This document shows, one piece after another, positions 2,041 through 62,519 of a DNA stretch of 64,000 nt (positions are counted from its first letter, which is position 1; each line of letters opens with the position of its first letter). The notes beneath the pieces were generated by a model. It had not been told where the DNA came from. It searched no databases and saw nothing but the letters and a program-made list of their open reading frames with translations. The stretch lies in the IMG/VR virus record IMGVR_UViG_3300029718_000386. One strand, written 5' to 3'. The position numbers and the translations under genes were made by a program. Source of the DNA: a virus. Its lineage: Duplodnaviria; Heunggongvirae; Uroviricota; Caudoviricetes.

Positions 2041-2120
2041 AAATTCATCACCCCTTTCTAAGAAAAAAAGCGGGAAGGCACATCTGATAACTGTACCACT
2101 CCCGCCGTGTTGTTCGATTT

Positions 2121-2426
2121 TTCAATAAATTTGATCTGGAATGACCAGCACACAGACGGAGCCAAAGGCCCGGTCTGTGGTAAACCCACATCGTCAATGT
2201 TATGAATTGTTTGTTGTATACTGCACGTCTCCGACCCCATCAGAGATTTTTAACAACACACCGTAGTGCAAGGGGCTTGTGGAGCACCCCTTGGTACCTA
2301 TTTGGCAGCCGAGGCTGCCATTAAAACATAACGTAGCACTCGAAGTGCTTAGACTAATCAACTATGGACTTGCGATTACTCACAAGCCCAGACTGACTGT
2401 TTTACGGTCAGTCTGTGGTAATTGAC
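2121..2426 (-). ncRNA. Orphan copy of an approximately 306-nt structured RNA element (omega-RNA-like scaffold) with no adjacent iscB.
   Basis: About 95% identical to 25239..25544, which lies directly upstream of iscB. The differences include paired, compensatory changes in hairpins, for example ggacttgcg...cacaagccc versus gggcttgtg...tacaagcccc. The element ends exactly at the stop codon of the SpoVG-like gene. Confidence 0.4.
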
Positions 2427-2819
2427 TTACGCAGCCTGCGGAATCGAAGAGATGCGCTCATCTGTATCTTTTTGACAAGCAATCTTGTACGCTTGCATAA
2501 TACCCCGATTCAATTCTTTTGAAGCTTCAGGGCTATTTGGAAAAGCAACGCTTACAAATACGTCTTTACCATTACGCTTGCGCAGTCTCTTTGATGGATA
2601 TACAATCGTAATTCTACCAAATCGCTGAAGAATACAAATGTCATTGATTACAATGTGTCCATAAGTCACCTTCGCAAATGCCTTCAGCTCCTTCCCATTA
2701 AACAAACGAATGTCTACCTGATACGGAATGCACATATTACCATGTGAGTCTTTCTTGAGAAGGTCGCTTACATTGATCATCATTTCCGGTGAACTGTATT
2801 CGTTTTTGTGTTCCGGCAT
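2427..2819 (-). CDS. SpoVG-like protein.
   Basis: Resembles the SpoVG fold sequence: KAFAKVTYGHIVINDICILQ...ITIVYPSKR...VFVSVAFPNS. Likely start MPEHKNEY with RBS GAAAGGAGG 6 nt upstream. Confidence 0.45.
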   Translation of the reverse strand: MPEHKNEYSSPEMMINVSDLLKKDSHGNMCIPYQVDIRLFNGKELKAFAKVTYGHIVINDICILQRFGRITIVYPSKRLRKRNGKDVFVSVAFPNSPEASKELNRGIMQAYKIACQKDTDERISSIPQAA

Positions 2820-3004
2820 CGAAATCCTCCTTTCATCGTATTGGATTGTTTTAAGTGTCTCGTGTATTTTTGCTCTGTGAACACAAGACACAAAAAATAA
2901 AAAGAAGGAGAACGCATTTCGTGCCAGTTATGGCAGCAGCATTCTCCTTGTTAAAATAATTATAACACTTTTGTGAATTTCGGACAAATTTTACAAATGA
3001 ACAG

Positions 3005-10789: not shown

Positions 10790-12395
10790 TACAAAGTGAA
10801 TTACCACGTCTGACAGTCGCACACGCCAGTCAGGCGTGGCTTATGTTTTAAGCGACATGCAGCATTCACAGCTGTTCTATCCGCAGAGCGGACTACATGT
10901 TAAAAATATTTGTTAAGATATCCGGTCTTTCAAAGTTCACTTGCGTAAACAAATCCGGCAGCGCTTTTCTGCCAATATTGGCAGCAGCGTTCAGATCTGC
11001 ATTGATAATGGAGTCGTCTTGGTTACAATAAAGCCCTCTTTTTATGCGCCTGCCGGAGAACTTCAATGCATCATATTCTTCTTCTGATTGCTCTCCATAC
11101 ACCGGAATGTCATCTTTGTACTTAAAAGATGCCTGCGATGTAAAAGACTCTTCTTGATAAAGAATATTGATGCCATACTGCACAGCACGATACGCAATGA
11201 ACTTTTTAAGCAGATCAAACGGAATACCAACAAAACTTTGGTTGTTCTTTTTATCCATTTTGCTTGACTGTTTCCAGCCTTTGGTAGATCCAAGAATAAT
11301 TGTGTCAACATGATGATCTAAAGCATACTTGATGATATAGTCTGCGTATTTATGCATTACATCACGCATGAAGTTGTTTCTGTTGACCCAATTCTTCTGG
11401 TAGAGATCTAACAAAACGCCTTGGTCCTTTGCACTTTGCATTTGAGCATTTAGTTTGTTGAACCATTGATTTTTGGATTTTACAATTCCGCCCTTGATTA
11501 ACAGACCTTTATGGCCAAAGTTATTCGATATAGCTGCGAGATTGTCAACACCAAAATCAATGGCAATACAACGCTCCGGTTTATCAAAAATAATTCGCTC
11601 GTTGTTGTCATCTTGTTCAATTGGCTCAAATGCATTTGGAATTTCAAAAACAAAAGAAATGTAAAACACGTTAAAGTACGGTTTAATTGTTACAAATTTC
11701 AAACGACCAACAGGCGTTGTAATTTGACAAACTTCTTTTGTTCTTGGAAACTTTACAAAACAGATGCTATCTTGTTCTTTGACAACACATTCTTGATTAG
11801 ACAAACTGGCCGTGCACATACCGCCAGGCTTCTTGTAACCCGGTAGGCGCGGCGCGCCTGTAAAGGCTTGCTTATTCTTTGCGTATGCTTTGCAGCTTTT
11901 GCAATAGCCTTTCATATCCTGTACGGCTTGCTTAATTGTCTGTTGTGCTGTATGCCTCGGTAAATGTTGTGCGAAATAATCCACATTGCTGTTGTCGTGC
12001 AATAGTTTGTTCAACATACCGTATGACAAAAACCACTTCTTTGCCGTGGGCATACGATACGACGGATTGCAGTCTGTAAAATCTTTTAATTCATTTAAGA
12101 TTTCTTGCTCATTTGAAGTGATTGATTGTGGTAAACATTCCAACTTCTGCAATCCGGTCATTGTCTGTCGCATACGAAACAAGACAGCATTGTAAAGATT
12201 ATTTGCTGCATGGCAAACATCAGAACAATATGCATACAACTGATGCGTGTCTTTGATTTCTACCCGTAGAGTTTTGTACATACTACACCTCCTTTCTTAA
12301 GACTTTCACTTATTAATACTGCATTCGCAGAAAAACTTAAAATGCGCATTCATCCACGTCTGAGTCGTTGTTCAGGCGTGGTGTTCTGCGCAAAA
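10790..12395 (-). mobile_element. IS200/IS605-family tnpB-only element (IS1341-like). No tnpA anywhere in the window.
   Basis: Near-identical imperfect-palindrome hairpins flank the gene. 12354..12381 is ccacgtctga-N8-tcaggcgtgg and 10804..10839 is ccacgtctga-N16-tcaggcgtgg. The same single T/G mismatch in both is typical of IS200/605 subterminal structures. Confidence 0.5.
10893..12281 (-). CDS. tnpB: TnpB-like protein (RuvC-like, IS605 OrfB family) with an apparently degenerate RuvC-II glutamate and a lost C-terminal zinc finger.
   Basis: RuvC-I IAIDFGVDNLAA (Asp present). RuvC-III INADLNAAANIGRKA (Asp present). The region expected to read ...IVIEDLNVKGM instead reads TIILGSTKGW, with no acidic residue. 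The canonical TSxxCxxCG...CxxCG is replaced by TSQASFKYKDD...RGLYCNQ. RBS GAAAGGAGG. Confidence 0.75.
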   Translation of the reverse strand: MYKTLRVEIKDTHQLYAYCSDVCHAANNLYNAVLFRMRQTMTGLQKLECLPQSITSNEQEILNELKDFTDCNPSYRMPTAKKWFLSYGMLNKLLHDNSNVDYFAQHLPRHTAQQTIKQAVQDMKGYCKSCKAYAKNKQAFTGAPRLPGYKKPGGMCTASLSNQECVVKEQDSICFVKFPRTKEVCQITTPVGRLKFVTIKPYFNVFYISFVFEIPNAFEPIEQDDNNERIIFDKPERCIAIDFGVDNLAAISNNFGHKGLLIKGGIVKSKNQWFNKLNAQMQSAKDQGVLLDLYQKNWVNRNNFMRDVMHKYADYIIKYALDHHVDTIILGSTKGWKQSSKMDKKNNQSFVGIPFDLLKKFIAYRAVQYGINILYQEESFTSQASFKYKDDIPVYGEQSEEEYDALKFSGRRIKRGLYCNQDDSIINADLNAAANIGRKALPDLFTQVNFERPDILTNIFNM

Positions 12396-12454
12396 TAAAA
12401 GAAACCGACCCTTCAAATGCAAAAAAATAACATAAGAAGAGTCGGTGACTCAAT

Positions 12455-23729: not shown

Positions 23730-23819
23730 TGGTCGGAGATGAGGGAATCGAACCCACTCGAATGCCTAAGCACACCAGTTTTACAGACTGGGGTATCTAC
23801 CTTAATACTTTAACCTCCG
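23730..23819 (-). tRNA. tRNA-Tyr (anticodon GTA), class II with a long variable arm.
   Basis: Anticodon arm CCAGTCTGTAAAACTGG. About 90 nt. Confidence 0.6.
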
Positions 23820-23842
23820 ATTTATTAAATTGTCGCAGAATA

Positions 23843-23869
23843 CCACGCCTGAACAACGGTTCAGACGTG
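23843..23869. repeat. IS200/605-like subterminal hairpin, approximately the reverse complement of the tnpB-element hairpins.
   Basis: ccacgcctgaa-caacg-gttcagacgtg, located 12 nt downstream of the iscB stop. Confidence 0.3.
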
Positions 23870-23880
23870 AATAAATACAA

Positions 23881-25224
23881 CTATGCCGCGTTGTAAATTG
23901 TTTTTGCGTATTTAAATGGTTGTAATTGCTTAACGCTTACAATTTTTTTGAATTCGTTATTTTTGATAGACACGTAAGTACCGCGGTTTTGTGTGCCAAC
24001 CACTTCAAATGTTCTGTTACGCCAAAGCACCGTATCATGTGGTTGGTACGGATATCGTTGTCTTCTGATAGATACTCTACCTTTGGAAATCTTTTGCTGT
24101 CTGTATGGATGCAAGTTCTCACCATTCAGGTTTTTGTTACGAGTTGTTCTACCGCTAAATAATTCTTTACCGGTAGCCTTTTGACCCGTCCTTGCATCCA
24201 CATATTTGGCATCGTGAAACTTTGCAAGACAACGATTATTTTTACGTTTCTCTTGCCAGAACACCGGTTCACACCGGTGCTTTGGCTGTTTGTCGCCGAC
24301 ACAATACGCATCGTTGTAATGCGTTTTGTCTAACTGCAAATCTATCCGTTTGGATTTTGTCAAATAGCCAAAAGTCTCTACAACCGGAATCGTGTATTCA
24401 TCACGCAGCTGAGTGATTAGCATTCGTCTGACCGTAGACATAAATGTCTCCGGTTTGAAAGACTTTTGCTTTGGTTGCAGACCATACAAAATCTGCCCCT
24501 TTTGATGATTACGTGACGTATGACACTTGCTACATAGCGTTAATGTATTTGCAGGCGTATTTGAATGATCGTTTTTCCAATATCCGATATGATGCATGCG
24601 AAGCACTGCACCATCTCGGAAAGCATTTTTACCACAGATCTGGCAAGTGTATCCGTCTCTGTAGAAAGTGTACTCACGCAAATTTCGGAAGTCGTACATT
24701 TCTCCCTTTTGATATTTCTCACCGGATATGCTTGGTTTCTTTAATGCTTGAATATCGAAATTTGCTGTTTCCACATAGATTTTTGTAATCGGAAGAAGGC
24801 ACATCAACTTTCGAATGACCTTTTTGTGGCTGTCCAGCTTATGCTGAATGCTGGGTGCCAACCATTGATCCGGTCTTCTGCGATTATCAAATCTTGGCTT
24901 GCGATATCTCAAACGATTGCGACGCGTGTGACGATATGCTCGCCGGTCGTCTAATCGTTTGGATTGGTTTTCTAAAAGCTTTAATTCACCGGAAAACAAT
25001 TCTTTGTTATCAGTACAAGCAGAAATGCCAATATGCTGATAACCAGCATCGATTTTCAGATCAATGTCTTGTGTATTGTTTTCCGTCTCATAAAGCAATT
25101 GGATTGTAAACGGATTGCCACTTACGACTTGAGCTTTATTGCTCTTCAGCAGTTTGCGTACATAGCCACATCTTTCTGTTGGCATCAGTGGCAGGCCGTT
25201 TACATCTAAGACATACACCATCAT
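23881..25224 (-). CDS. iscB: IscB (OMEGA RNA-guided nuclease; IS200/605-associated Cas9 ancestor) with an apparently intact catalytic complement.
   Basis: N-terminal PLMP domain (VLDVNGLPLMPTERC). RuvC-I IDAGYQHIGISA. Arg-rich bridge helix RRAYRHTRRNRLRYRKPRFDNRRRP. RuvC-II IYVETANFD. HNH CQICGK...HHIGYW...N...CSKCH. RuvC-III HYNDAYCVGD. RBS AAAGGAGCC 9 nt before the ATG. Confidence 0.8.
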   Translation of the reverse strand: MMVYVLDVNGLPLMPTERCGYVRKLLKSNKAQVVSGNPFTIQLLYETENNTQDIDLKIDAGYQHIGISACTDNKELFSGELKLLENQSKRLDDRRAYRHTRRNRLRYRKPRFDNRRRPDQWLAPSIQHKLDSHKKVIRKLMCLLPITKIYVETANFDIQALKKPSISGEKYQKGEMYDFRNLREYTFYRDGYTCQICGKNAFRDGAVLRMHHIGYWKNDHSNTPANTLTLCSKCHTSRNHQKGQILYGLQPKQKSFKPETFMSTVRRMLITQLRDEYTIPVVETFGYLTKSKRIDLQLDKTHYNDAYCVGDKQPKHRCEPVFWQEKRKNNRCLAKFHDAKYVDARTGQKATGKELFSGRTTRNKNLNGENLHPYRQQKISKGRVSIRRQRYPYQPHDTVLWRNRTFEVVGTQNRGTYVSIKNNEFKKIVSVKQLQPFKYAKTIYNAA

Positions 25225-25238
25225 AAGATATGGCTCCT

Positions 25239-25560
25239 TTCAATAAATTTGGTCTGGAATGACCAGCGCACAGACGGAGCCAAAGGCCCGGTCTGTGGTA
25301 AACCCACATCGTCAATGTTATGAATTGTTTGTTGTGTACTGCACGTCTTCGACCCCATCAAAGATTTTTAACAATACACCGTAGTGCAAGGGGCTTGTGG
25401 AGCACCCCTTGGTACCTATTTGGCAGCCGAAGCTGCCATTAAAACATAACGTAGCACTCGAAGTGCTTAGACTAATCAACTATGGGCTTGTGATTTCTTA
25501 CAAGCCCCAACTGACTGTTTCACGGTTAGTCTGGGGTAATTGACAGTCAGGACCGCTACC
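25239..25560 (-). ncRNA. Candidate omega-RNA of the IscB element: about 306 nt of scaffold (25239..25544) plus a putative guide segment (25545..25560).
   Basis: Conserved structured element immediately 5' of the iscB RBS and start, in the same orientation. A second copy at 2121..2426 shows covariation. Multiple hairpins are visible, for example GGGCTTGTgatttcttACAAGCCC and GGTGCTCCacaagCCCCTTGCACTACGG. Confidence 0.55.
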
Positions 25561-25584
25561 GTTACGGAATATCGACGCATATAC

Positions 25585-25672
25585 TGGTGCTGATAGTGGG
25601 AGTCGAACCCACACGGTGTTGCCACCATCGGGGCTTAAACCCGATGCGTGCTGCCAATTTCGCCATATCAGC
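25585..25672 (-). tRNA. tRNA-Leu (anticodon TAA), class II.
   Basis: Anticodon arm TCGGGTTTAAGCCCCGA. Long variable arm. T-arm GTGGGTTCGACTCCCAC. CCA encoded. Confidence 0.7.
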
Positions 25673-25738: not shown

Positions 25739-26233
25739 TTATTTGGTAATCCGATCCGCAATTGTACTGGCTACAAATGAATTTGGCTTGGTTTCAACAT
25801 TGTAGCCGCAAGAGCGGATCCAACTTACCAGCCCAGGAATAAGATCCTTTGTTTTTCCGTTAACCGAATTTCCAGCATCAATATGAATTGACAATGGACA
25901 TTCTGCAAACATCTCTCTATATATTGCCTTACCCTCAAACATGTCTACCAGTTCCCCGGCCAAAGTTAAGCTGGCAGCAGTTTCAGTTTGCAATTTGAGT
26001 TTTACATTTTGGATCAAGTTCTCACGAGAAATTTCATAAAAGAAGATACCTCCATGTCCATGGGCAATAACTGCAATAACAGATACCATTTTTGTATTAT
26101 TGAAATTTTGACTATCTGTGCCGACAATGATACTGATTTGATCTGTTTGTGCTTTATTACGCCGGTAATAAGCCAAGATAGCATCTGGAATTTCTGTAAG
26201 CTGTATTGAATTCCCTGAACCGGTACAAAACAT
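25739..26233 (-). CDS. RNase H-fold protein (YkuK/DUF458-like), embedded in the tRNA array.
   Basis: 164 aa. Motifs IVGTDSQ, HGHGGIFFYEI and HIDAGNS are consistent with a D/E/D RNase-H-like active-site arrangement. The assignment is tentative. Confidence 0.35.
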   Translation of the reverse strand: MFCTGSGNSIQLTEIPDAILAYYRRNKAQTDQISIIVGTDSQNFNNTKMVSVIAVIAHGHGGIFFYEISRENLIQNVKLKLQTETAASLTLAGELVDMFEGKAIYREMFAECPLSIHIDAGNSVNGKTKDLIPGLVSWIRSCGYNVETKPNSFVASTIADRITK

Positions 26234-29073: not shown

Positions 29074-29643
29074 CTAAAAAATTAAGGAAAAAAGACAGAA
29101 AAGAATAAGACTTAATGTACTAAAACGCACGACATGCCGGACTATCCAAAGCCACTGCACTTTTCCAATCCACCCGGCAATTGAATATGCGCCGCTACTC
29201 GTTCCCTTACGCGAATTGCAAACTCGACAAGCTGCAGCTAAATTCTTTTCGCAGTTGATGTTTTCAATCCCGGCCCTTTTAAGCAACCATTGTTTAAATT
29301 TACTGCTTTTTACAGGCGCAATGGGAACAATATGATCTACTGTTACTTGGGCTTTTGGCAAAAGACGTCCACAGTACGCACAGAAGTAATGTCCGTCTAT
29401 GCCTTTATTGCATGAAAAAAAGGTTCGTCTATAAGATGAACCTCTTGTGAATGCTTGATTAACTAAACTATATCGCAAATGATGGCGCTTACAGTATTTT
29501 TCAACCTGTCGCTCCATCGACTCATCAAGCCCGTCAATAGATGTACATCTTTTTTGTTCATTTAAGAAGGGCTTAAACTCGTGTAAATCATTTCTGACGT
29601 ATCTTTTCGTTGACCAGATGTCAACCACATAACTGTCTCCCAT
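29074..29643 (-). CDS. HNH endonuclease.
   Basis: CAYCGRLL...VTVDHIVPI...NLAAACRVCNSRKG. This is a C-x2-C...DH...N...C-x2-C-N HNH motif. Confidence 0.65.
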   Translation of the reverse strand: MGDSYVVDIWSTKRYVRNDLHEFKPFLNEQKRCTSIDGLDESMERQVEKYCKRHHLRYSLVNQAFTRGSSYRRTFFSCNKGIDGHYFCAYCGRLLPKAQVTVDHIVPIAPVKSSKFKQWLLKRAGIENINCEKNLAAACRVCNSRKGTSSGAYSIAGWIGKVQWLWIVRHVVRFSTLSLILFCLFSLIF

Positions 29644-40385: not shown

Positions 40386-43300
40386 TTACCACGGAGAAGT
40401 CTCACGTGTCTTGAAGTCGTCAAACAGGCTTCCGTTGATCTTTACGGCGTTTGAATCACCAACATAGCTTAACATACCACTTGGCGTCCAGCAATCAGCA
40501 ACACGAACCTGGATCTTATAGTCCGTATCGTTTGGATACCATACCGGGACATGGTGCAGTGAACGTGCGCTGCTGTCCTCATCCTCATATTCCATAAACT
40601 TAAACCAATATGGATTTTCGTTCGTGTTGGCACCAGTGGGACGCAATGATGCATAAGGTCCAAAATACTTTCTGTCAGTTGGAGCCGATTTGAGTCCATA
40701 CATCGCATACAACGCCGAGTATTTACCATTGATTGTCTGGTAATTGTACTCTGGATAATACGCCAATGCAGATTGCGCGTTTACGCAACTACCATCTGGT
40801 AAAGCAGGATCTGTCTTACGCTGTGGCGTTAAGTTCGCTGTTGCTCGACTCTCAAGACTGTAACCGCTCTTGGTTTCCCAGTAATTCTCGTCTCCATTGT
40901 TTTCGACTTTTTTGCTTGGGTTCTGAGCACTGCCTGCACCGGCAGATGCTAGCGGTTTTAACAGATTCTCTTGGAAGCCAAGTCTTGCTGTGTAAGTATG
41001 CAGTTTAAACACTCCATTTTCGCAGGTGTATTCCTGCCATGAAGTCGTGTTCGCATACGGCTTGTCATTTGTCGGATCTTTATAAGAATATCCATCTCCA
41101 CCGTTCAGGTTATAACCTTCATAATTTGTGGAGCTTGTATTATCAAGATCGTTAAGCTGCACAAGGTTTTTGTCTTGCCGCCCTGAGTCGCAATACACAA
41201 ACTGTCCATTCTCTTCGTCATTATAACGTAGCTGAACCCACGGTACGACACCATAGAACTTGTATCCCAATGATTCATAAGAGTCGTCAATTGAACTAAC
41301 AGCAGGCGTTCTAACAGTATAATAAATCAGATTGTTCTTTGCAGCCGGTACTACAGCGGTTCTGGCGGCGTACTGACAGTTGTATCGACCAATCAATTTC
41401 TTATCGTATTTGACTTCCACATTTTCAATGGCTTCATACTGCCACTCTCCTGTGTTTAAATTATACAATTTGGCATACAGACCACCGGTCGCATTCAAAG
41501 CATTTTGATCGGTGAAGTTTTCAGTGCTGTGGTTGTCTACGATAAAGGACGTTACAACATCCGTGCCATATGAATATTTTGCATTTGGATATTGGAATTT
41601 AACATCCACAGGCAAATACTTTTCATTGACATAACAACCAACGTTGTAAGTAGCACCTTTACTTCCGTCTGTCGGAACCCCACCAAACAAACCAATGTGC
41701 TTTTTATCTGAATCTTTATGTCCTGGTACTTCATAGCACAATTGATACTTTAAATTTGCTGTACCACTTGGCCCACACCCAAACCACATTGTTGATGGTT
41801 CCAAATAATACGCTGTCAGAGAATCTAAAAGCTCTTTCGGGAAGTAATAGCTAAATACAAATGGGAAATCTTCTTTGTTATAGTAAGAAGAAATCTTTGT
41901 GTTTGCTTGTACTCCGCTTGAAATAGCAAATCCCATGTTTTCAATTTGCTCTTCTGGACTCAATGCAAAGACCTCTCCAAACTGTGCTGCCCAAGAGTTT
42001 TCATCGATCGTATCGCGATTTGTTTCCGGTCCGTACAGCATTTTCGCAAACTCTAATTCCGTCATTGTGTCGGAGCTAACATTTTTCTCTTTTACCGCAC
42101 TGTCTGGGATTGCATACGGCAATAGATCCACCTGTCTCTTTAATGGGTCAATCGGATCCGTAGAGCCACCAGCTGTTTCATATGCTTCTTTTGACAGATA
42201 GGTGTTGACGACTATGCCAGCCGTACACTCGACGTCAAATGAGTGGTCTGCAGTAATATTTTCAAAGGTATAGCTACCACCACTCCAGTATTTATAAACG
42301 TCACTGATTGTTTTTTCAGTGTCGAGTCCTTTATCAATCACAATCTTACTTACCATAAATCCGTCATTAGGTGTAAACTCAATGTTTTTTGTTTCACCAT
42401 ACTTGATTTTGGTAATTGTATCTGTGATTGTGCCGTTTGTGATGCTTGTTGTAATAGTGTATGTTCTTGTACAAACAACATCAACTGTATGGTCAGCGCT
42501 CAAAGTTCCGGGAATTGAAACTTTACCGCTCTTGGTGTCACCCGTCCATACCAATTGTGCGCCTGTTAACTTTTCTCCAGAATTTAATTCCTTTCCATCA
42601 ATTTTAACAGAAGTGATCTGATAACCAGGATCCGGCGTAAATGTAACAACAGAGTCAGCACCCGCGATATTTTTGTAATTACCAGCACGTAATCCAGTCA
42701 CCGTTTTGGTAATTGTACCATTCTGAATACTGGTCTTTATCTGATAAGTTTTCAGATCCATTTCGGCTGTATAATGTTCTACGGTGTCATAACCAAGAGG
42801 CTTTGAGCCTTGGACATCACTCTTAAATGAAAAAATGTTGTTCGCAGTTGTTCCATTTGGTGTCACACGAGTTGATGTTCCAAACAAGCCAAACAGTCTA
42901 CGGTCATCATTTTCAAGTGCCTTATCCACAGAGGACAAAAGACGTACACTCATCTTGTATGGATGTGTGTTCTTTGGATAAGCCGGATTACTGCCATCAT
43001 TATCTTCAAGCTTATATCCGACATAAATGAAGTTTGACTTACCAAAATCCTTCGTGGCGGCGTCTAAAGAGCAGTTTGCGTTTAGAGTATAGATATAGCC
43101 ATCTGCATCCGTCAGAAGATCGTTACCCTCGTTCATAACAGTAGCATTACCATCTGGAGAAACATTATAGTCCTTAAGCACCGCTAACGGTGTTGCAATT
43201 TTGCTTGTGTACAAATTCAAATACTGAAGCGTATTATCCAAAGTTACACGAGCGGTTGCGTTTTGAGCGTCCTCTCGGCTTGTAACCTGAGCAGTTGCAA

Positions 43301-46300
43301 GATTATCTATATTTGTAACTTTCGTCTTCAGCTTATCTTCTTTAAACTCAACAGACGAAATACCAACAAACTCTGACGGAATTCCATCTGTAAATAGATT
43401 ACTACTCTTTACAAATGGATTAGCAACAACCGGGTTTGTCGATTGCAGACTGTTTTTAATACTGTATTTTGTAGCTAAATCTGTAGCGTAAATATCAATG
43501 GTAGCCTCAGAACACAACACTTTCAAGACAACATAACCATCTCTGTCTGCTGCTTGGTGACGAATAGCAAAGTCGCAAAGCATATTATATAATGCACCAG
43601 GTGTCGCTCCCTCTGCGCTGTCACCAAAATACAAGACTGACTTATTGGCATAATCGAATACGCTATCTCGGTACATCACTCCGGTCTTTGACTTACTATA
43701 CTGTGACTTAATCACCGAATACTTATTCTGTGTGCTGTCCATACCATCAGCGTCCCAGGCTCGTTCAGCATCGGCTGCGACAGGCTTGCCCGTCGGATAA
43801 TATTCCAGCATTACGCCATAGGCCATCATGTCATTCTCAAGAACACTTTGCAAAGAATTGATTTGATCTTCGTTTATGTGATCTTTCAATGCGATCGTGG
43901 AATTGCCGTTGCCCCGTAGCATAAATTGGTCAAATAATTTACTATACTCAACACCATCGTAACCGATAATCGGCAGGCCGTTAGATGTTGTAATAATACC
44001 ATTAAGTTGACTTGCCTGTGTCTGATCACCTTTGCCGATATTTAAGAGTACATCATTACCATTTGCAAAATTGAGTGCAGTAAAATCAGAAAGTGCGTTA
44101 TATCCGTCTATCGTACCCTCTGTATCAGCGGAGTATTCATAATCTGCAAGAGACTTTGAATCAACCTTAAATACTGTTGAAGACTCATCGGAAGTGAATT
44201 CATCACAAGACACAGAATAATACAAATCCTCTGGCGATTTGGTTGTAATTGAAACATAATACTTCTTGATTGGAGTAATATTTGAAATTGCTGCCAACGC
44301 ATCTGCCGCATTCGTCACCTTCTTCTCTGTGATCGGAGAATATGGGTTGTGACATTCGCCCCATCTGTTCGCATACTCCCTTGCTTTAGATGAAGAGAAT
44401 GCATAGTCTTGATAGTCAACGGTGATCGTGAAATTATCATTTGTGGCATCGTCGTGATATGTGTATGACTTATTGAAAGACGGATAAGTATTTGTGCTGA
44501 AGTTTTTAGCATCCGCCTCTTTTTGGGCATTTAATGTGCTTACTTTTTGGGACAGTTCGGCTAAAATTCCAATTTTATTTAGATCAAGAGTCGTGTATGG
44601 AACAAGCTCGTCCTTTTCATTCTTTGTGTACAAAGAATATACAATGTTGTCATTATCAAAAAATGAAACACCGCTTTCGTTATAGGACCGATCCACCGAA
44701 TCGAAAAAGGTTGTCACAGTTTTGCTGTCAGCGTTAGTCTGCTTTTTTAAATAATAATCAAGCTTAGCATACTTGCCTGTGTACTTAATTTCTTGCACAT
44801 TCTCCTTAAAAGACACCGATCCTGAACGAGTTGTCCACACCTTTTGCTTCTCGCCATTTTGATCTATAAAGAAGAACTCAAATTTATATGTTCCCGGTTC
44901 AGTTGGATAATAAGAATAATTCAAATAAGTTCCATCGTCTGAATAAAAATCAAAATCCTTAGAAGTATTGAGAACCTTATCCCTTTCGATGGATCGATAA
45001 ACGCCCAGAGAATCCATCTTATAAACGTTCATTGAGACATTCTCAACAGGATTGCCTTGTTTGTATTCTGGATTTAAGTTAGCTGATTTATCCAGTGTGT
45101 GCAGTCTCAGATCGATACGGTCTTTAGCATACAGGTCAACCTCTGTTAAATATGTTTTTCCAACTATAGATTTTTGCCCTGCCGTATTTGCGTTTTTAAA
45201 CTCTTCTAAAGATGAGACAACGCTCTTTTCCGAAACAGTCTCAAAAGCTTTTGGTGACGTCTTAAATGCCTCTTCATAAGCGTAATAGTTCAGATGGACT
45301 TCATTATAGTCCTTGATGTTCTTAGTTACATCAGACACAGTAAAGTCTTCAGGCATAATAAAGAACTTGTATGTGTCTGCGTCACCATAAAACATTATAG
45401 CCCCATTCTCGTCGGTTTTTAAGATCTGAAAATCGGGGTCACTTCGAGGCTCATTACATTCACTGCAGAAATCCGTATTATACGGATTTGTTTTATATGT
45501 CGGGATGTCAGACAACCACGCTCCACAATTCGCACACACGATGGCATCATAGGCGTTTTTTTCTTTGCATGACGGACAATCCTTGTAAGAACAGCCATAA
45601 CAAGTCCAAGTAAGATCATCTGCAGACTTAAGTCCTACTAATTCTTTATACTTGCTTTCAGACAAAACCATCACGCGCGCGCCAGCAACAGGCGTTCTGG
45701 AATTAAACGTTGCGTTATCATATACTTTGATCTGATTTAACTGATCTCCATAATATGCCTCGGCGTTATACACCAGGTGGTTGTTTGTATAACGCACACT
45801 GCCACCAGTTACCTCGTCATTGTAGTAATAGCGATCAGACTTGTTATCTTTAATGACAAAATAATAGTAATATCCAGAAGTCAAACTATTTGCAGGGAGT
45901 GACACAGTTACATAATTCGGATAAATGCTGTGTCCACAATTAGCCTTTCCGGCTGGATGTTTCGTTCCACACACAGAACATTGCCAGCCTGTTGCAATTG
46001 TTGAACTAATCAAAGAACCACCGGTGTGAACGTAGGCTGTATCATACTGATCCGCAGATCCGCCACCGCCACACAACGCAAGATTGGTCTTTGAATAGCC
46101 GATGCTTGGAGAACCAATATATGCCGTAGATGTATGTCTTCCGTTACTCACTCCTAGTCCACCAGAAAACCACTTATGACACTTAGAGCAACGAATCAGG
46201 GAAACAGAACCGCCAGTATATGGGCTATCCCCTTCATGCCCCTCACAAGCATACGGATACTCTTTAAATGCATTGACATTTGCTCGACTCTCACTCACAT

Positions 46301-49300
46301 TGGCCGTAATATCTTTAACTAATTCCACATCATACGTTGAACCCTGACAAGTCAGCGTAGAGTTAGAATGGCCACAGGCAGAGCACTTCCAAGTCTTGGA
46401 CGAAGCCGTTTGTTGCATATAGGTATTTGTGCATGTTTCTCCATCACATTCAACACCACTATTTGTAGATTCGCACTTTGAGCACTGCCAGGCATCAGGA
46501 ACAATCCAAAACTCGGGGACACCTCCCTGGTCGTCGATAGATTTACCGCAGTCTGGACAAATAGAAGTATTCTCTACGATACTACCACATGAGCACTTCC
46601 AAGCGTAGTTGTTTTGAGCCGTCAAATAATCAGAAAACTTTGAACCACACTTTTCATTGATGTTGTTAAACAATTCATCCGCATTTACCGGCAGTGAAGA
46701 AAGTGATTTTGATCGATACAAAAGCAGTTGAGAACCGGTTTTAAGCAGATTTAAAGCCTCAACAGCTTCATCTCCGCGAGCAAACAAATTGTACTCAATA
46801 CCGCCCTTACCATCGCCCTTAGGCATATAATACAGATACACATTCAGAGTGCCATGCATTTCATCAACAGTAAAATCAGGCTCCCCTGCTACTTCTTTAT
46901 GTTGATAGTTACCAAACACATCTATGTATCCATAAGCACCCACATAGTCGCATGTGCTTCCACCATATTCTACAGACTCTTTGAAATACGGAACATTTTC
47001 TGTAGTCGTTGTTGTATTGCCGTCAGCGTCCGTCTGTTCAACGGTATCTTCATAATAACCGCCTTTGAATGAAAACGCCTTTGCTGCATCCCAGTCTAGA
47101 ACCTTCGACGATACGATAGTGTTGTCCTCATAGATAGAAGAACTATCGTAATCAAAACTGTCTGTCAATGCCACATAGTTCAGAATGACTTTAGAATCAC
47201 TGACCGGAGCAAATGTAACATGGATGTCAGAAGCCTTTAAAGATGCAACATTCGTGTTGAAGGACATTTTATAGAACTGCTCACTGTTTTGTGGATAAAG
47301 TGTTCTGGAACCAACAGGGCTGCCGTCTTTGTTTACTGCACCATCATCTACAACAATGCTCACAATCTTAAAGCCGGTTGATTTTGGAATAGAAACCGTA
47401 ACCACCTTGCCCAATGAGTTATTGTCCGTTACATACATATCTGTTTCCACAGAATTTTCGTAGTCAGTTGAAGCTCCGGCCTGCCCGGAAGGCTTAATCG
47501 CTTTGCTGCTCCCCTCTTGAAGCGTCCAGTTATCTGATACGCCTACCCATTTGGAGATTTTCTTTTGAGCCTCATCTGCAGCTTCTTTTGCATCAGCCGC
47601 AGCTGCCACTGCCTGATCATCACTTGGATCAATTGTTACATCTTTATAATTGGACTCATAATAATTGATGGCATTTAGCAAATCATCAATTCCGGACAAA
47701 GAACCGGCTGCTGAAATATTGTTTTGCAGCTGCCACTGCGCATAATAGGTTACTTCACCTTCAGCAGGCGTCTTGATCGTTGTTACCTGATCTTTAGCAT
47801 AATCATAGTTATCTGCCGTAGCACCCCAGCCCTTGAATGTTCTGTTCAGATCTTCCAAATCGCCGTTCAGCCCGGCAATTGCAGCTGTGCCCGTACAATT
47901 ATGCCCATTTACTGAAGGCGCATTTATCGTCTGCCCAACGTTAGCAGTTGTTGAACTGATTGTTTCGCCGCACAGTGCACAAACAAAGTTTACCGTAGAC
48001 TGCAGCGTGAATGTGTACTTCGCATAATACACTGTCACTTTAGCACTTGGCATCGTAATGTCATTACCGACAGTCAATGAAGCATCATCCGACTTATCAT
48101 TCACCGTATAATCAGGATTTGTTCCCCAATAGCTGAATGTAATTTTATAATCACTCAGCGGATGACCTTTGTATTGCAAATTACTTAAATTACTGGAGTC
48201 GTTATGAGATTCGCCTGCAGGTACAGGACCCTGTGTAGAGCCTGGTGCACCACGCAGCAACGCAATTTCATTTTCATCGATAGAACACTTAAATAAAACT
48301 TTATTCTCGTTCGTCAGCTTGAGGGCGTACTTTGCATAATACTTTTGCGTGCTGCTTGGCACAGTTGTTTGAGAACCTGCCTTATGGTTGCTCAACACGC
48401 TCAAACTATCATTCAATGTACCGGTAGCCAGCTTAGCATTTGCGTTACTGTCTTGACCCCAGCCTTGGAATGTAATCGAATAATCTCCAACATCAATGGT
48501 CTTGCCATTGTATGTAATCTTTCCACCATTGACAGAGCACACATGTTTTGAACCAGTGGGGATAGTATACTTTTCTCCGGCGTAATGTTCTCTGTCATTT
48601 TTACTGGTTGAAGTATCATACAGTTGTGCTCCGCACAAACTGCAGTAATACACCGCTCTGCCTTTTGCATTCTCTTTCTTATCCAGACACATCCAGAATG
48701 TGGTATCGCCATAAATCTTTTTCTGACTTGGCACCGGATTAGTCATTTTTGAGCCATTCTTTGACGCGCTCCAATGTTTATAGCTGTAAGTGTATTTGTA
48801 GTTGTTGTGCTTTTGCGGATGCGTCTTTTCTTGATCGTTGAAGTAGCTTCCGGGAACTGTCTCACCGTGTGCCACTGTAATCGTCTTTAAGTTTGCTCCA
48901 TCGAGAGAACATTTTAAATAAGCCCTATGCGCCACGGTCTTTAGATTAAACAGCACACGCACGGTATTATAACGACCACCACAGATGTAGCCCTTAACAC
49001 CGGCAGTTTTATCTTTGCCCTGAAAATACGTTGCTTTGTTATAAATATCAGGTGCATTCATATGCCAAGCCAAATTGACAGACACATTGGACCGGCGGGA
49101 TGTATAGAAGGTCAGCTTGTTACCGCTCACTTCTACCTTCATAAACGGTTCTGCAGGTTTTGTTTTCAGCTTAGCGGAGCTTACTGGAACATAGCCATAG
49201 TAAGAAGTTGTGTTTTTTTCTTCATCGCCAAAGTACACACAGTAAAACTTGCCATTTCGTGTTTTACCCAACACAGAAGCGCCTCTGTACTGTGGACCTT

Positions 49301-55974: not shown

Positions 55975-56943
55975 TTAAATAATATTTTTCTTGGCGAGCA
56001 TCCAATAATGCTGTCCAAGCGCCGTAAGCTTACAGGATTTACGGTAAATTGCAGCGTAATACATATGCTTTTCGCCGACTGGAACCACTAAATTCAATTT
56101 AACATAATGTTGCAAAACAGCAAAAATTGATTCATGTTCTTTATTGACTTCTTTTGTGTCGGCTTCATGTTTATCTGGTTCATATGTTGGATCCAGTTTA
56201 AACTCAGCACTAGGCTCGTCAAAAAGCTCGGTAATGCGTCGAAGATCTTCGATAGAAATCGGAGGGTTGTTTTTTCTCAAAGAAACAAAGTTCTTAATGT
56301 TTGCTTTAAATACTGGGCGCTGCTCCCACGGACCAAGTGATCTATCTATGTAGGCGTATAGACTACCAGGAGACACATCACCAAGCAAATTCATCGCGCC
56401 ACCCATCAATGCTTCAACTAACAACGAAGTGAAAACCCCTGAGCCGTTATTCTCAGACGCAACATCATGAGCCTCACACGCAGCTAATACTACCGTGCCG
56501 TCATCTATTACAGAGCGATTGGGTGTTGCTACACAACTTGCTATCGATCCACTGCAACAACTATCTAAAATAATGATCTTATTTTGTGCTTTAGAATCAG
56601 CAGCAAGCTTCATCACATCATTTAACGGGAACCCATCACCAACGTCTCTCACTTCACTTGTACATAAATATTCACCAACCGAATCAAAGGATCCATGCCC
56701 AGCAAAGTAGAACAACGCCACCTCTGTTTCACTTTTAAATAACTCTTCAACAGCCGCTTTAAGCTGTGATCTAGAGATACGCGAGTCTTTACTGGTGGCA
56801 CACATTTTTTTCACTCCAAAATTAATTGTGCCATCTGCGTTTCTTTCCAATACTGTTCCAACAGCATTCGCATCGTTTACACAACCGCTAAGATTTGGAA
56901 CGTGTTCATAGTTATCAATTCCGACGCACAGTGCTTTTCTCAT
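55975..56943 (-). CDS. Caspase-like (peptidase C14 / metacaspase-type) protein.
   Basis: ALCVGIDNYEHVPNLSGCVNDA. His box YFAGHGS. Cys box IILDSCCSG. RBS AAAGGAAC. The TIR-like gene immediately downstream has a separate RBS and follows after a 24-nt gap. The track ORF version of that gene would overlap this one by 31 nt. Confidence 0.65.
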   Translation of the reverse strand: MRKALCVGIDNYEHVPNLSGCVNDANAVGTVLERNADGTINFGVKKMCATSKDSRISRSQLKAAVEELFKSETEVALFYFAGHGSFDSVGEYLCTSEVRDVGDGFPLNDVMKLAADSKAQNKIIILDSCCSGSIASCVATPNRSVIDDGTVVLAACEAHDVASENNGSGVFTSLLVEALMGGAMNLLGDVSPGSLYAYIDRSLGPWEQRPVFKANIKNFVSLRKNNPPISIEDLRRITELFDEPSAEFKLDPTYEPDKHEADTKEVNKEHESIFAVLQHYVKLNLVVPVGEKHMYYAAIYRKSCKLTALGQHYWMLAKKNII

Positions 56944-57379: not shown

Positions 57380-57802
57380 TTAGTCGCATACTAGACACAA
57401 ATCGGAATAACCACCACGGTCGATCCAGCAATAAGAAATTCTGGTTCTACCATAATCAGTAACCATGAGATCCATCAAGCTTTCGTGATCTTCAGCGTAT
57501 TCAAACCATGAATTTTTAAAGTCTTTGTAATAATAATTCGACTTAGGATTACTGCTAAGAGTTCTAAACGAATGATTCTTTACAGCAACATCATATTCAT
57601 GTGTTCCGGCATCGATCTTACGTACAGTTACAGTCTTTTTGTAACCGTATTTCTTTGCTACTTCATTTGTGGGTTTAAGCACATTATCAACAACCCACTG
57701 CTTTTGAGCAGCCGTCAGGCTCTCTGAAGTGTCTTCCAGGACCTTCACCATCTGAATATCCGTCCAAGCTGAATATGACGATAGGTAGCCCTTTGATATC
57801 AT
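57380..57802 (-). CDS. Hypothetical protein.
   Basis: 140 aa. Terminator GACCCACCaaaGGTGGGCC at about 57335..57360. Confidence 0.35.
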   Translation of the reverse strand: MISKGYLSSYSAWTDIQMVKVLEDTSESLTAAQKQWVVDNVLKPTNEVAKKYGYKKTVTVRKIDAGTHEYDVAVKNHSFRTLSSNPKSNYYYKDFKNSWFEYAEDHESLMDLMVTDYGRTRISYCWIDRGGYSDLCLVCD

Positions 57803-62422: not shown

Positions 62423-62519
62423 ATTTTTCACACATCTCTCCTCTTTTACACTAAACATCACTTTAAGAATAGACTATATTTCAACAAATGTCAAGCGCAA
62501 CTTTTATTCAGATGTTTTC

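What the first reader, a model, noticed from the sequence alone, without database searches (positions are those of the whole stretch)
23881..25560. Intact IscB (OMEGA) RNA-guided nuclease with its candidate omega-RNA, inserted inside a tRNA super-array
Seen in the sequence: a 447-aa ORF carries every IscB hallmark.

- **PLMP domain:** GLPLMP.
- **RuvC-I:** DAGY.
- **Bridge helix:** Arg-rich, RRAYRHTRRNRLRYRKPRFDNRRRP.
- **RuvC-II:** VETANFD.
- **HNH:** CQICGK...HHIGYW...CSKCH.
- **RuvC-III:** HYNDAY.

All catalytic residues appear intact. Immediately 5' of its RBS, in the same orientation, lies an approximately 306-nt hairpin-rich element (25239..25544). Established knowledge of IS200/605 OMEGA systems places the omega-RNA scaffold there. 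The roughly 16 nt just beyond the scaffold (25545..25560, RNA sense GGUAGCGGUCCUGACU) would then be the guide.

The element sits between tRNA-Tyr and tRNA-Leu(TAA) within a 28-gene tRNA array. That is an unusual cargo context. An intact ancestral Cas9-like nuclease could be a mobile accessory function rather than a decaying IS.
Basis: partly seen in the sequence, partly recalled or inferred. Interest (0 to 1): 0.8.

Follow-up and report, generated by a model that had tools for sequence, protein, structure and literature searches.

The report
IscB transposon splitting a tRNA-Tyr gene
This is an intact but ordinary IscB/omega-RNA mobile element (an ancestor-of-Cas9 RNA-guided nuclease); it landed in the anticodon loop of a tRNA-Tyr gene of a giant human-gut genetic element, so its guide RNA is a piece of that tRNA and matches the uninterrupted gene still carried by sister genomes.

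Summary

- **Protein:** ORF 23881..25224 (-) is a full IscB. It matches Pfam RRXRR and HNH, aligns to OgeuIscB structures at E about 1e-43, and keeps catalytic residues D59, E152, H212, H302 and D305.
- **RNA:** The upstream element is a full-length Rfam HEARO (omega RNA) match, 131 bits against a threshold of 83.
- **Element ends:** Independent insertions elsewhere define a 1725-bp IS200/605-type element, 25544..23820. No TnpA is in the window.

New findings:

1. IS-free sister genomes exist. They show the element sits between U33 and the GTA anticodon of a tRNA-Tyr gene. The 16-nt guide is the D-arm and anticodon-stem of that gene, and in empty genomes the target is followed by GTAAAT.
2. 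The old 3' half is gone. A divergent, complete tRNA-Tyr directly abuts the element.
3. A second, ORF-less omega RNA (2120..2426) has its own guide. Its target is followed by TAAAA in IS-free genomes.
4. A TnpB element in the window shares both transposon ends.

Best reading: a selfish, non-autonomous OMEGA element whose nuclease cuts IS-free alleles (homing/retention). This is a new member of a known kind, with an unusually clear natural filled/empty record. Cleavage itself is inferred, not shown.

The parts
23820..25544 (-). Whole non-autonomous IS200/605-type (ISC) element, 1725 bp: omega RNA, IscB gene, far end
   Evidence: Homology to independent insertions in unrelated contexts (L009, L011, L013) begins at 25544 and ends at 23820/23822. 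The flanks differ at every site. The element is absent from sister genomes L017, L019-L023 and L025.
25545..25560 (-). Guide segment of omega RNA-A, GGUAGCGGUCCUGACU
   Evidence: It lies immediately 5' of HEARO model position 1 and of the transposon boundary. It is identical to the D-arm/anticodon-stem of the intact tRNA-Tyr in IS-free genomes, where it is followed by GTAAAT. It occurs once in the window.
25545..25578 (-). Relic 5' half (to U33) of the original tRNA-Tyr gene, split by the insertion
   Evidence: It aligns 33/34 (one 1-nt indel) with positions 1-35 of the tRNA-Tyr of empty-site genomes. The matching 3' half is absent from the window.
25238..25544 (-). Omega RNA-A scaffold (Rfam HEARO 25298..25544, plus a conserved 60-nt 3' extension with two hairpins)
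   Evidence: Searches give 131 bits, full length. It is 95% identical to copy B over exactly this span. A seven-sequence alignment predicts 91 pairs, 4 with compensatory changes, 2 of them in the 3' extension hairpin.
23881..25224 (-). iscB gene, 447 aa, with catalytic D59, E152, H212, H302, D305 and Zn-cysteines 194/197/231/234
   Evidence: dN/dS is 0.07-0.19 against independently inserted copies.
23820..23880 (-). Far (left) transposon end: hairpin CACGTCTGAAC-CGTT-GTTCAGGCGTG (23869..23844) and terminus ...TAATAAAT
   Evidence: It is conserved in all IscB copies. The same hairpin sits next to a Y1 TnpA in L011 and upstream of the window's TnpB at 12355..12390.
23730..23819 (-). Replacement tRNA-Tyr(GUA)', complete and divergent, starting at the first base after the element
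   Evidence: ARAGORN calls it. It shows about 25 mismatches per 100 nt to the old tRNA-Tyr while the flanks show 0-3. It is found only in filled loci. It matches the guide at only 6 of 16 positions (read from the sequences).
25585..25672 (-). tRNA-Leu(UAA)' directly upstream. It probably supplies read-through transcription, and it is itself a swapped allele.
   Evidence: It is 65/88 identical to the sister-genome allele but 86/88 identical to an allele in unrelated IMG/VR phage contigs. No promoter-like site lies between it and omega RNA-A.
2120..2426 (-). Orphan omega RNA-B: scaffold only, with no IscB ORF and no far end
   Evidence: HEARO 119 bits, full length. No IscB ORF lies downstream. 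It is absent from L039 and L040 and present in L037 and L038.
2427..2442 (-). Guide segment of omega RNA-B, UCCGCAGGCUGCGUAA (the last codons and stop of the SpoVG-like gene)
   Evidence: In IS-free genomes this sequence is followed by TAAAAATT.
10796..12398 (-). Companion non-autonomous TnpB element (ORF 10893..12281) sharing both end types with the IscB element
   Evidence: Pfam OrfB_IS605 plus the TNB domain. The left-end hairpin is at 12355..12390. The right end reads ...GGTAATTCAC| against ...GGTAATTGAC| for the IscB element. An autonomous TnpA+TnpB version exists in L011.

Best explanation
A non-autonomous IS200/IS605-family (ISC-type) element encoding IscB and its omega RNA transposed into the anticodon loop of a tRNA-Tyr gene, next to a TTTAC/GTAAA motif. 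That gene lies in the 27-gene tRNA array of a giant (about 0.6 Mb or more) uncultivated human-gut replicon.

**Shown:**
- The element's identity and its exact ends.
- Its insertion polymorphism in the population.
- The guide equals the 5' half of the split tRNA-Tyr.
- The uninterrupted target, plus an A/T-rich adjacent motif, persists in IS-free sister genomes.
- The same holds for a second, ORF-less omega RNA copy.

**Inferred from characterised relatives:**
- The omega RNA is made by read-through from the tRNA array. There is no promoter in the 40-nt gap, and the orientation is the same as the upstream genes.
- It binds IscB and directs double-strand cleavage of IS-free alleles: intact tRNA-Tyr followed by GTAAAT.
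- The IS-bearing allele is spared, because there the target is followed by the scaffold (GTCAAT) instead of the motif.
- Repair from an IS-bearing copy then restores or spreads the element (restorative or non-restorative homing).

Transposition proper needs a TnpA supplied in trans. None is in the window, but relatives carry one next to a TnpB element with the same ends. Omega RNA-B can no longer transpose, because it lost IscB and the far end by deletion. It could still use IscB in trans as a second guide. The divergent tRNA-Tyr' abutting the element restores a tRNA-Tyr gene and is not matched by the guide.
For: **Identity**
- Family and structure matches.
- Catalytic residues intact.
- Purifying selection, dN/dS 0.07-0.19.
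- The omega RNA is far more conserved than synonymous sites and has compensatory pairs.

**Ends and mobility**
- Independent insertions define both ends at base resolution.
- Copies 93-96% identical in protein sit at several other sites.
- One relative is frameshifted.

**Polymorphism**
- 7 of the 10 places shown for the neighbouring RNaseH-like gene lack the element.
- The exact IscB is on 40 contigs against 249 for that neighbour.

**Targets in empty sites**
- Empty-site sequences show the split tRNA-Tyr and target+GTAAAT.
- Site B shows target+TAAAAA.
- Element termini end TAAAT| or TAAAA|.

**Shared ends and TnpA**
- Both ends are shared with the TnpB element, and a TnpA sits in relatives.
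- No TnpA in the window.

**Transcription**
- Same orientation as upstream genes and no intervening promoter.

**Literature**
- The HEARO/omega region is bounded by the right end; there is an orientation bias; TnpA and the nuclease share an AT-rich TAM; only about 1.5% of iscB genes have a tnpA nearby; donor-joint cleavage promotes retention (Meers et al., doi 10.1101/2023.03.14.532601).
- Non-restorative homing and plasmid gene drive: PMC13565253, which cites Mears et al., PMC11870625.
Against: - No expression or cleavage data exist for this element. The TAM is inferred from two empty sites and the element termini, and the register disagrees by 1 nt between sites A and B.
- All IS-A-bearing contigs seen are one near-clonal lineage, 99.95% identical. 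Spread by homing, as opposed to descent, is therefore not demonstrated.
- The present filled allele is not a simple insertion. The old 3' half of tRNA-Tyr is missing and a foreign tRNA-Tyr' sits there, so TnpA excision today would not recreate the ancestral target.
- The IscB C-terminal TAM-interacting region (residues 311-447) did not align to OgeuIscB.
- TnpA was not found in the 64 kb. The rest of the genome could not be inspected.
Confidence: 0.8

Rival explanations
1. Competition weapon, or a natural 'cleave-and-rescue' drive. The IscB/omega pair is retained mainly because it destroys the tRNA-Tyr gene, and through omega RNA-B a second locus, of co-resident rival genomes. The linked, guide-mismatched tRNA-Tyr' acts as the rescue copy. 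Spread and exclusion come from killing or converting rivals rather than from transposon maintenance.
For: - The guide matches a conserved tRNA-Tyr core that is also present, with GTAAA next to it, in four unrelated IMG/VR phage contigs and in some bacterial tRNA-Tyr genes.
- tRNA-Tyr' abuts the element and matches the guide at only 6 of 16 positions.
- Divergence spikes are confined to the two tRNA genes flanking the element.
- One IscB is paired with two guides.
- T4 SegB is a protein-only precedent in a phage tRNA cluster (PMC13565253).
Against: - The element keeps both transposon ends and behaves like an ordinary IS at other sites.
- tRNA-Tyr' can be explained simply as compensation for insertional inactivation.
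- There is no evidence that phage-borne tRNA-Tyr is essential, that rivals co-reside, or that cleavage occurs.
- No gut species representative in GTDB carries the exact target.
Confidence: 0.2
2. Inactive relic. The element is a recently immobilised IS whose nuclease and RNA no longer do anything, and its intactness only reflects a young age.
For: - There is no TnpA in the window.
- The filled lineage is near-clonal.
- A frameshifted relative (L013) and an ORF-less copy (omega RNA-B) show that decay happens in this family.
Against: - dN/dS is 0.07 with dS about 1.5 between copies at different sites.
- All catalytic and Zn residues are intact.
- The omega RNA is more conserved than the ORF's synonymous sites and has compensatory pairs.
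- Orphan omega RNA-B still scores 119 bits and is kept in lineages about 2% diverged.
Confidence: 0.07
3. Composite element carrying tRNA-Tyr' as cargo. The mobile unit in this lineage extends past 23820 and includes the tRNA-Tyr' gene, so the element brings its own replacement tRNA wherever it lands.
For: - tRNA-Tyr' starts at the very first base after the canonical terminus and is found only in filled loci.
- In a sister subgroup, the far end has demonstrably extended by 37 nt to a second TAAAA site and captured flanking sequence.
Against: - No other copy of the IscB element has tRNA-Tyr' next to it.
- Homology to the sister genomes resumes immediately after the tRNA 3' end.
- No second far-end hairpin lies downstream of tRNA-Tyr'.
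Confidence: 0.08

Closest known systems
IscB-omega RNA (OMEGA / HEARO) elements of the IS200/IS605 (ISC) family, e.g. OgeuIscB and GstIscB
   Same: - Same domain order: PLMP, RuvC-I, Arg-rich bridge helix, RuvC-II, HNH, RuvC-III.
- Intact catalytic residues.
[quoted passage not shown]
- A/T-rich adjacent motif shared with the transposon target site.
- No adjacent tnpA, and the same orientation as the upstream gene.

Sources.
   Different: - The flank, and so the guide, is the 5' half of a tRNA gene.
- The element is embedded in a tRNA array of a giant gut replicon and is apparently transcribed with it.
- The C-terminal TAM-interacting region is too divergent to align to OgeuIscB.
- The inferred motif, (N)TAAAW, only partly overlaps OgeuIscB's NWRRNA (PMC12660989).
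Multi-family IS605 sets mobilised by one TnpA (ISGst1-5 of Geobacillus stearothermophilus, Meers et al. 2023)
   Same: IscB- and TnpB-encoding elements share left- and right-end sequences, with TnpA encoded elsewhere (paper read).
   Different: - Here the set lives on a giant phage- or plasmid-like genome rather than a bacterial chromosome.
- Natural empty sites are available for two insertions.
- The ORF-less derivative (omega RNA-B) is not a PATE with both ends. It is an omega RNA that lost the far end.
Phage T4 SegB, a free-standing homing endonuclease in the T4 tRNA gene cluster
   Same: A nuclease gene sits inside a tRNA cluster whose predicted target is a tRNA gene of related genomes lacking it, with possible co-conversion of neighbouring tRNA alleles (concept from PMC13565253; local divergence spikes).
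   Different: SegB recognises DNA through protein contacts and is not a transposon. Here recognition is by a 16-nt RNA guide and the element has transposon ends. Marker exclusion is not demonstrated here.
TnpB-driven IS605 gene drive in plasmid populations (Mears et al. 2025, PMC11870625)
   Same: A guide-directed cut of the IS-free copy of a multicopy or co-resident replicon, with repair from the IS-bearing copy and no need for TnpA (as summarised in PMC13565253).
   Different: That system uses TnpB, was tested experimentally, and runs on small plasmids. This one uses IscB, is natural, and is inferred only from sequence polymorphism.

Membership tests
IscB (OMEGA RNA-guided nuclease) | N-terminal PLMP/RRXRR region with RuvC-I, and an Arg-rich bridge helix | tested here: met
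   Pfam PF14239 covers 1-174/174 at E 7e-60. Residues 2-111 align to solved IscB chains.
IscB (OMEGA RNA-guided nuclease) | Split RuvC with catalytic Asp/Glu/His-Asp, and an HNH domain inserted between RuvC-II and RuvC-III | tested here: met
   D59, E152, H212, H302 and D305 sit at the positions that I equate, by numbering recalled from memory, with OgeuIscB D61/E193/H247/H340/D343. Cysteines 194/197/231/234 are present. Pfam HNH at 7.7e-07.
IscB (OMEGA RNA-guided nuclease) | C-terminal TAM-interacting domain | tested here: inconclusive
   Residues 311-447 did not align to OgeuIscB by phmmer. They are covered by the full-length phage family phrog_119, 2-442, and are conserved among relatives. 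No structure was predicted.
IscB (OMEGA RNA-guided nuclease) | RNA-guided, TAM-dependent double-strand DNA cleavage | not testable with these tools
   Needs biochemistry. Only the guide, target and adjacent motif could be matched in silico.
HEARO / omega RNA (Rfam RF02033) | Covariance-model score above the curated threshold over the full model, upstream of and co-oriented with iscB | tested here: met
   131.1 bits against 83, model positions 1-211, at 25298..25544 (-), 73 nt upstream of the start codon. The orphan copy scores 119.3 bits.
HEARO / omega RNA (Rfam RF02033) | Structure supported by compensatory substitutions | tested here: met
   Of 91 predicted pairs in 7 sequences, 4 have double-sided changes and few are broken. 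The support is weak in amount because the sequences are close.
IS200/IS605 (ISC) transposon | Defined ends with a subterminal hairpin, no inverted terminal repeats, and no target-site duplication | tested here: met
   Both ends were mapped from independent insertions. The far-end hairpin is at 23869..23844. Comparing filled and empty sites shows no duplicated bases.
IS200/IS605 (ISC) transposon | Insertion next to a short specific target motif that flanks the left end | tested here: met
   All termini read ...TAAAT| or ...TAAAA|. The empty sites read GTAAAT and TAAAAA. The register is uncertain by 1 nt.
IS200/IS605 (ISC) transposon | Y1 (HUH) TnpA transposase, in cis or in trans | tested here: inconclusive
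   None is in the 64-kb window (tblastn). A Y1_Tnp gene sits next to a TnpB element with the same ends in relatives L011 and L054.
Homing (restorative or non-restorative) by an OMEGA nuclease | Presence/absence polymorphism with the guide matching the empty allele next to a TAM, and the self allele lacking the TAM | tested here: met
   Site A. Site B. At filled sites the guide is followed by GTCAAT.
Homing (restorative or non-restorative) by an OMEGA nuclease | Biased inheritance or spread onto different backbones, with co-conversion tracts | tested here: inconclusive
   All filled site-A loci belong to one lineage. Divergence spikes flank the element, but the segment between them is native. 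Lookups for other backgrounds found other insertion sites instead.
CRISPR-Cas9 (type II) | CRISPR array and a REC lobe | tested here: not met
   No closely spaced direct repeats or tandem arrays were found in the window. The protein is 447 aa, and its matches to Cas9-like chains are limited to the RuvC/HNH core.

The most novel reading that the evidence does not exclude
This may be a natural RNA-guided 'cleave-and-rescue' module. One IscB is armed with two omega RNAs. Omega RNA-A has a guide that matches a conserved tRNA-Tyr core found in sister genomes and in unrelated phages. Orphan omega RNA-B acts in trans. Together they would cut rival genomes in the same cell, while a tightly linked, guide-mismatched tRNA-Tyr' preserves the function for the carrier. 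Under this reading, the flanking tRNA allele swaps are scars of such nuclease-driven conversion, and the one-nuclease/several-guides layout is a step toward CRISPR-like trans guiding.
Probability: 0.2. Interest if true: 0.75.

Novelty: new member of a known kind. Interest (0 to 1): 0.45.

Why it matters
IscB/omega RNA biology is well established, so the element itself is ordinary. Viral or prophage contexts are also already reported: about 16% of HEARO-encoding fragments in PMC9755519, and a 49%-identical homologue in Clostridium phage c-st.

The value here is as a clean natural record:
- two insertions with their empty alleles still circulating in human-gut metagenomes;
- base-resolution ends;
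- a guide/target/adjacent-motif match for each insertion;
- a companion TnpB element with the same ends;
- an orphan omega RNA that can only persist through a nuclease acting in trans.

The insertion into a tRNA anticodon loop means the captured guide is a conserved tRNA core with potential reach beyond sister genomes. The adjacent replacement tRNA suggests how a genome, or the element, copes with the damage. If cleavage is confirmed, this locus would make natural non-restorative homing by IscB directly testable. It would also supply a compact IscB with a candidate (N)TAAAW motif.

Tried and rejected
- **Organism or replicon identity: unresolved.**
  - megablast of the array region against deposited phages gave only a 43-nt chance hit.
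  - IMG/VR had only about 40%-identical IscB relatives.
  - A GTDB scan with the target pattern returned only Lysobacteraceae tRNA-Tyr genes.
  - No public source names any of six window proteins.
  - Pfam and PHROG scans gave housekeeping-like and conjugation-like hits but no capsid or terminase.
  - The topoisomerase has phage relatives at 29% identity or less.
- **Empty site of omega RNA-B.** Two exact-protein lookups failed because of start-codon choice. Two more returned only filled sites. An exact DNA pattern found nothing. A protein-based scan finally worked.
- **Origin of tRNA-Tyr'.** No match in IMG/VR or in any unfilled locus.
- **Intermediate allele** (the IS with the old tRNA 3' half retained) or a second backbone for the site-A insertion. 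Lookups of IscB variants P0001, P0130 and P0124 found other insertion sites instead.
- **Far-end hairpin at the orphan copy.** Absent, so it is not a PATE-like mini-element.
- **tRNA-Tyr' as a defective tRNA.** Rejected as unproven. It scores 38.8 bits as sub-threshold tRNA-Sec-like, but the intact old tRNA-Tyr itself scores only 33 bits.
- **CRISPR association.** Rejected.
- **Exact TAM register.** Neither a 'TTAY' nor a 'TTTA' target-site model fits both empty sites without a 1-nt shift, so this is left open.
- **Script problems.** Two scripts used a wrong anchor string and one timed out. They were redone.
Full report
**1.

- **Protein family.** It matches Pfam RRXRR over the whole profile (E 7e-60) and HNH. 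It matches the full-length phage family phrog_119 (E 1.6e-92). It matches solved IscB structures including OgeuIscB (7xht, 7utn) at E about 1e-43.
- **Catalytic residues.** From that alignment, D59, E152, H212, H302 and D305 and the four Zn-cysteines are in place. Equating them with OgeuIscB D61/E193/H247/H340/D343 rests on residue numbers recalled from memory.
- **Omega RNA.** Upstream on the same strand, Rfam HEARO (RF02033, the curated family for the IscB omega RNA) matches end to end at 25298..25544, with 131 bits against a threshold of 83.
- **No CRISPR array.** No CRISPR-like repeats exist in the window.

**2. Element boundaries**

- **A second copy.** A second HEARO copy lies at 2180..2426. 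The two copies are 95% identical over exactly 25238..25544 versus 2120..2426. Identity starts sharply at GTCAATTACC and stops just before the IscB ribosome-binding site.
- **Relatives at other sites.** Close IscB relatives (96%, 83% and 82% protein identity) sit in unrelated gene neighbourhoods on other large metagenomic contigs. Each has a full HEARO match.
- **The mobile unit.** blastn against them gives homology from 25544 to 23820/23822 and nothing beyond. The mobile unit is therefore 1725 bp.
- **Guide-side flanks.** They differ at every site, as expected if the guide is simply the flank.
- **Far end.** It carries a conserved hairpin (23869..23844) and ends ...TAATAAAT.
- **Far end in a sister subgroup.** In L011, L050, L052 and L054 the shared sequence runs about 37 nt further, through an outward-facing AAGGAGG-N8-TTG start, and ends ...GATAAAA.

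**3. Family context**

- **Companion TnpB.** The window also encodes a 462-aa TnpB (10893..12281; Pfam OrfB_IS605 plus TNB). Its element (12398..10796) has the same far-end hairpin in the opposite orientation relative to the nuclease gene. Its right-end terminus is ...GGTAATTCAC|, against ...GGTAATTGAC| for the IscB element.
- **TnpA in relatives.** In relative L011 the same TnpB element carries a Y1 TnpA. L054 shows the same pairing.
- **No TnpA here.** No TnpA is encoded in the window.
- **Match to the literature.** This is the arrangement Meers et al. described for Geobacillus. Several TnpB/IscB families share ends and are mobilised by one TnpA in trans. The HEARO region is bounded by the right end. 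Only about 1.5% of iscB genes have a tnpA nearby (doi 10.1101/2023.03.14.532601).

**4. Empty sites: the main new result**

- **Population frequency.** The RNaseH-like gene just upstream of tRNA-Leu (25739..26233) occurs on many more contigs than IscB, 249 against 40 by exact sequence. Of the ten distinct places shown for it, seven lack IscB. These IS-free genomes have the same 27-tRNA array.
- **Empty allele.** There, tRNA-Leu(UAA) and tRNA-Tyr are 6 nt apart, and tRNA-Tyr reads GCGTCGATATTCCGTAAACGGTAGCGGTCCTGACT|GTAAATCAGG....
- **Filled allele.** In the window, the 34 nt before the omega RNA (25578..25545) are that same 5' half up to U33. The element follows at the bar.
- **What the guide is.** In IS-free genomes its target is followed by GTAAAT, the anticodon plus three bases.
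- **Direction of change.** The empty state cannot derive from the present filled allele by excision, because the old 3' half is absent from the window. The empty allele is therefore ancestral.

**5. The orphan omega RNA tells the same story**

- **Position.** Copy B starts at the base after the stop codon of a SpoVG-like gene, whose real start is 2819. No IscB ORF follows it.
- **Empty alleles.** Two metagenomic relatives (L039, L040) lack it and read ...ATTCCGCAGGCTGCGTAA|TAAAAATTAAGAAATCAAAC. Filled genomes read ...GCGTAA|GTCAATT...ATTGAAA|AATCGAAC.
- **Interpretation.** The guide-B target is followed by TAAAA in empty genomes. The filled allele is best read as an insertion followed by a deletion. 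That deletion removed the IscB ORF, the far end and 12 nt of flank. The deletion junction lies just after ATTGAAA, which copy A also has right before its RBS.
- **Consequence.** Copy B lacks the far-end hairpin, so it cannot transpose. It still scores 119 bits as HEARO and is kept in lineages about 2% diverged.

**6. Adjacent motif**

- **Evidence.** The empty sites read GTAAAT and TAAAAA. The element termini read TAAAT| or TAAAA|.
- **Inference.** Together they indicate an A/T-rich motif, roughly (N)TAAAW, 3' of the target. This is the reverse complement of a TTTA(Y)-like transposon target site.
- **Caveat.** The register differs by 1 nt between sites A and B, and I could not resolve it.
- **Self-protection.** At filled sites the guide is followed by GTCAAT, so the self allele lacks the motif.
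- **Comparison.** OgeuIscB uses NWRRNA (PMC12660989). The C-terminal region of this protein is too divergent to transfer that motif.

**7. Functional constraint**

- **Protein.** dN/dS between copies at different sites is 0.19 (dS 0.11) and 0.07 (dS 1.55).
- **RNA.** The omega RNA is far more conserved than those synonymous sites. It shows 4 compensatory pairs, two of them in a 3' hairpin (about 25296..25268) beyond the Rfam model. Meers et al. also noted that the Rfam model lacks downstream structure.
- **Decay.** One relative (L013) is frameshifted, so decay does occur in the family.

**8. Expression (inferred)**

- **Omega RNA-A.** All 27 tRNA genes, both omega RNAs and iscB are on the minus strand. 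Only 40 nt separate tRNA-Leu from omega RNA-A, and no promoter-like site is there.
- **Omega RNA-B.** It lies between the SpoVG-like ORF, which has a promoter-like site at 2987..2959, and a hairpin followed by a T-run read from the sequence. The terminator scan did not list that hairpin.
- **Fit with the literature.** This fits the reported bias of IscB elements to share the orientation of the upstream gene.

**9. What remains odd**

- **Local divergence.** Filled and empty genomes differ by 0-3 mismatches per 100 nt around the site. The figure rises to about 24-25 per 100 exactly over tRNA-Leu and over the tRNA-Tyr downstream of the element.
- **tRNA-Tyr'.** The downstream tRNA-Tyr' (23819..23730) is complete and starts at the first base after the element. 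It is followed by the conserved flank, occurs only in filled loci, and matches the guide at 6 of 16 positions.
- **tRNA-Leu'.** It is 86/88 identical to an allele in unrelated IMG/VR phage contigs but only 65/88 identical to the sister allele.
- **Native segment between them.** The 40 nt between the two swapped genes are native. The region is therefore a mosaic of at least two or three events, not one conversion tract.
- **Reach of the guide.** The exact guide target plus GTAAA also occurs in tRNA-Tyr genes of four unrelated viral contigs and of some Lysobacteraceae. The captured guide is thus a conserved tRNA core.
- **Status.** These facts allow, but do not prove, a competition or 'cleave-and-rescue' reading.

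**10. Host replicon**

- **Distribution.** The window is 99.95% identical to contigs from several human-gut metagenomes. Contig lengths cluster at 600-625 kb and reach 1.1 Mb.
- **Gene content.** Genes seen here and on linked loci include RecA, NAD-ligase, beta-clamp, NrdD, FtsH, YidC-like, signal and prepilin peptidases, a topoisomerase, a primase, a sigma factor and a 3358-aa ORF. Most ORFs have no family match. No capsid, terminase, ribosomal or aminoacyl-tRNA synthetase genes turned up in what I could inspect.
- **Conclusion.** I cannot say whether it is a megaphage, a megaplasmid or something else.

**11. Verdict**

- **Classification.** The element is a regular member of the IscB/HEARO-IS200/605 family, and viral contexts for IscB are already known (PMC9755519). 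I therefore rate it a new member of a known kind.
- **Interest.** It is moderate. It comes from the naturally preserved empty alleles, the tRNA-derived guide, the replacement tRNA and the orphan trans-guide.
- **Limit.** Cleavage and homing are inferred from characterised relatives, not shown here.

Noticed in passing
window 2120..2442 (-): A second, ORF-less HEARO/omega RNA with its own guide sits directly after the stop codon of a SpoVG-like gene. It is absent from related genomes L039 and L040 and appears to be an insertion that later lost IscB and the far end by deletion.
   Followed up: yes
window 10796..12398 (-): A non-autonomous TnpB (462 aa) IS element shares the left-end hairpin and an almost identical right-end terminus with the IscB element. 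An autonomous TnpA+TnpB version exists in relatives L011 and L054.
   Followed up: yes
window 25585..25672 (-); L043 3833..3920, L044 1336..1423: The tRNA-Leu(UAA) next to the insertion is a swapped allele. It is 86/88 identical to one in unrelated IMG/VR phage contigs but only 65/88 identical to the allele of otherwise 97-99% identical sister genomes.
   Followed up: partly
L050 11404..11440, L052 11404..11440, L054 1478..1514, L011 9404..9440: In a sister subgroup of the IscB element, the far end extends about 37 nt and carries AAGGAGG-N8-TTG AAG GAT AAA A. Gene callers use this as the start of four unrelated downstream genes, so the element seems to supply a translation start for the gene it lands in front of.
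   Followed up: partly
window 57775..58521 (-): Rfam finds group II intron domains (D1-D4 at 58326..58521, D5/6 at 57775..57859) with no reverse-transcriptase ORF between them. This looks like an ORF-less group II intron downstream of a fibronectin-III-domain gene.
   Followed up: no
window 29074..29643 (-): A free-standing HNH endonuclease ORF (189 aa, several PHROG HNH families) lies at the upstream edge of the tRNA array. It may be another homing-type nuclease next to the tRNA genes.
   Followed up: no
window 40386..50462 (-): A giant 3358-aa ORF has no significant Pfam or PHROG family match (only a sub-threshold double zinc ribbon hit). It is conserved at 90% identity or more on many contigs.
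   Followed up: no
window 55975..56943 and 61157..62461 (-): A caspase-like Peptidase_C14 protein and a histidine-kinase-like ATPase with a DUF4325/STAS-like domain may be defence or abortive-infection genes.
   Followed up: no
L013 8001..9350: The IscB copy in this Hadza-gut contig is frameshifted (365 aa called) while its omega RNA still scores 135 bits. This is an example of ORF decay with the RNA retained.
   Followed up: partly
window 23730..23819 (-): The replacement tRNA-Tyr' has unusual features: a C1-G72 first pair and four nucleotides between the acceptor and D stems, on my reading of the ARAGORN call. Its best Rfam match is a sub-threshold tRNA-Sec-like hit (38.8 bits). Whether it is charged with tyrosine is unknown.
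   Followed up: partly
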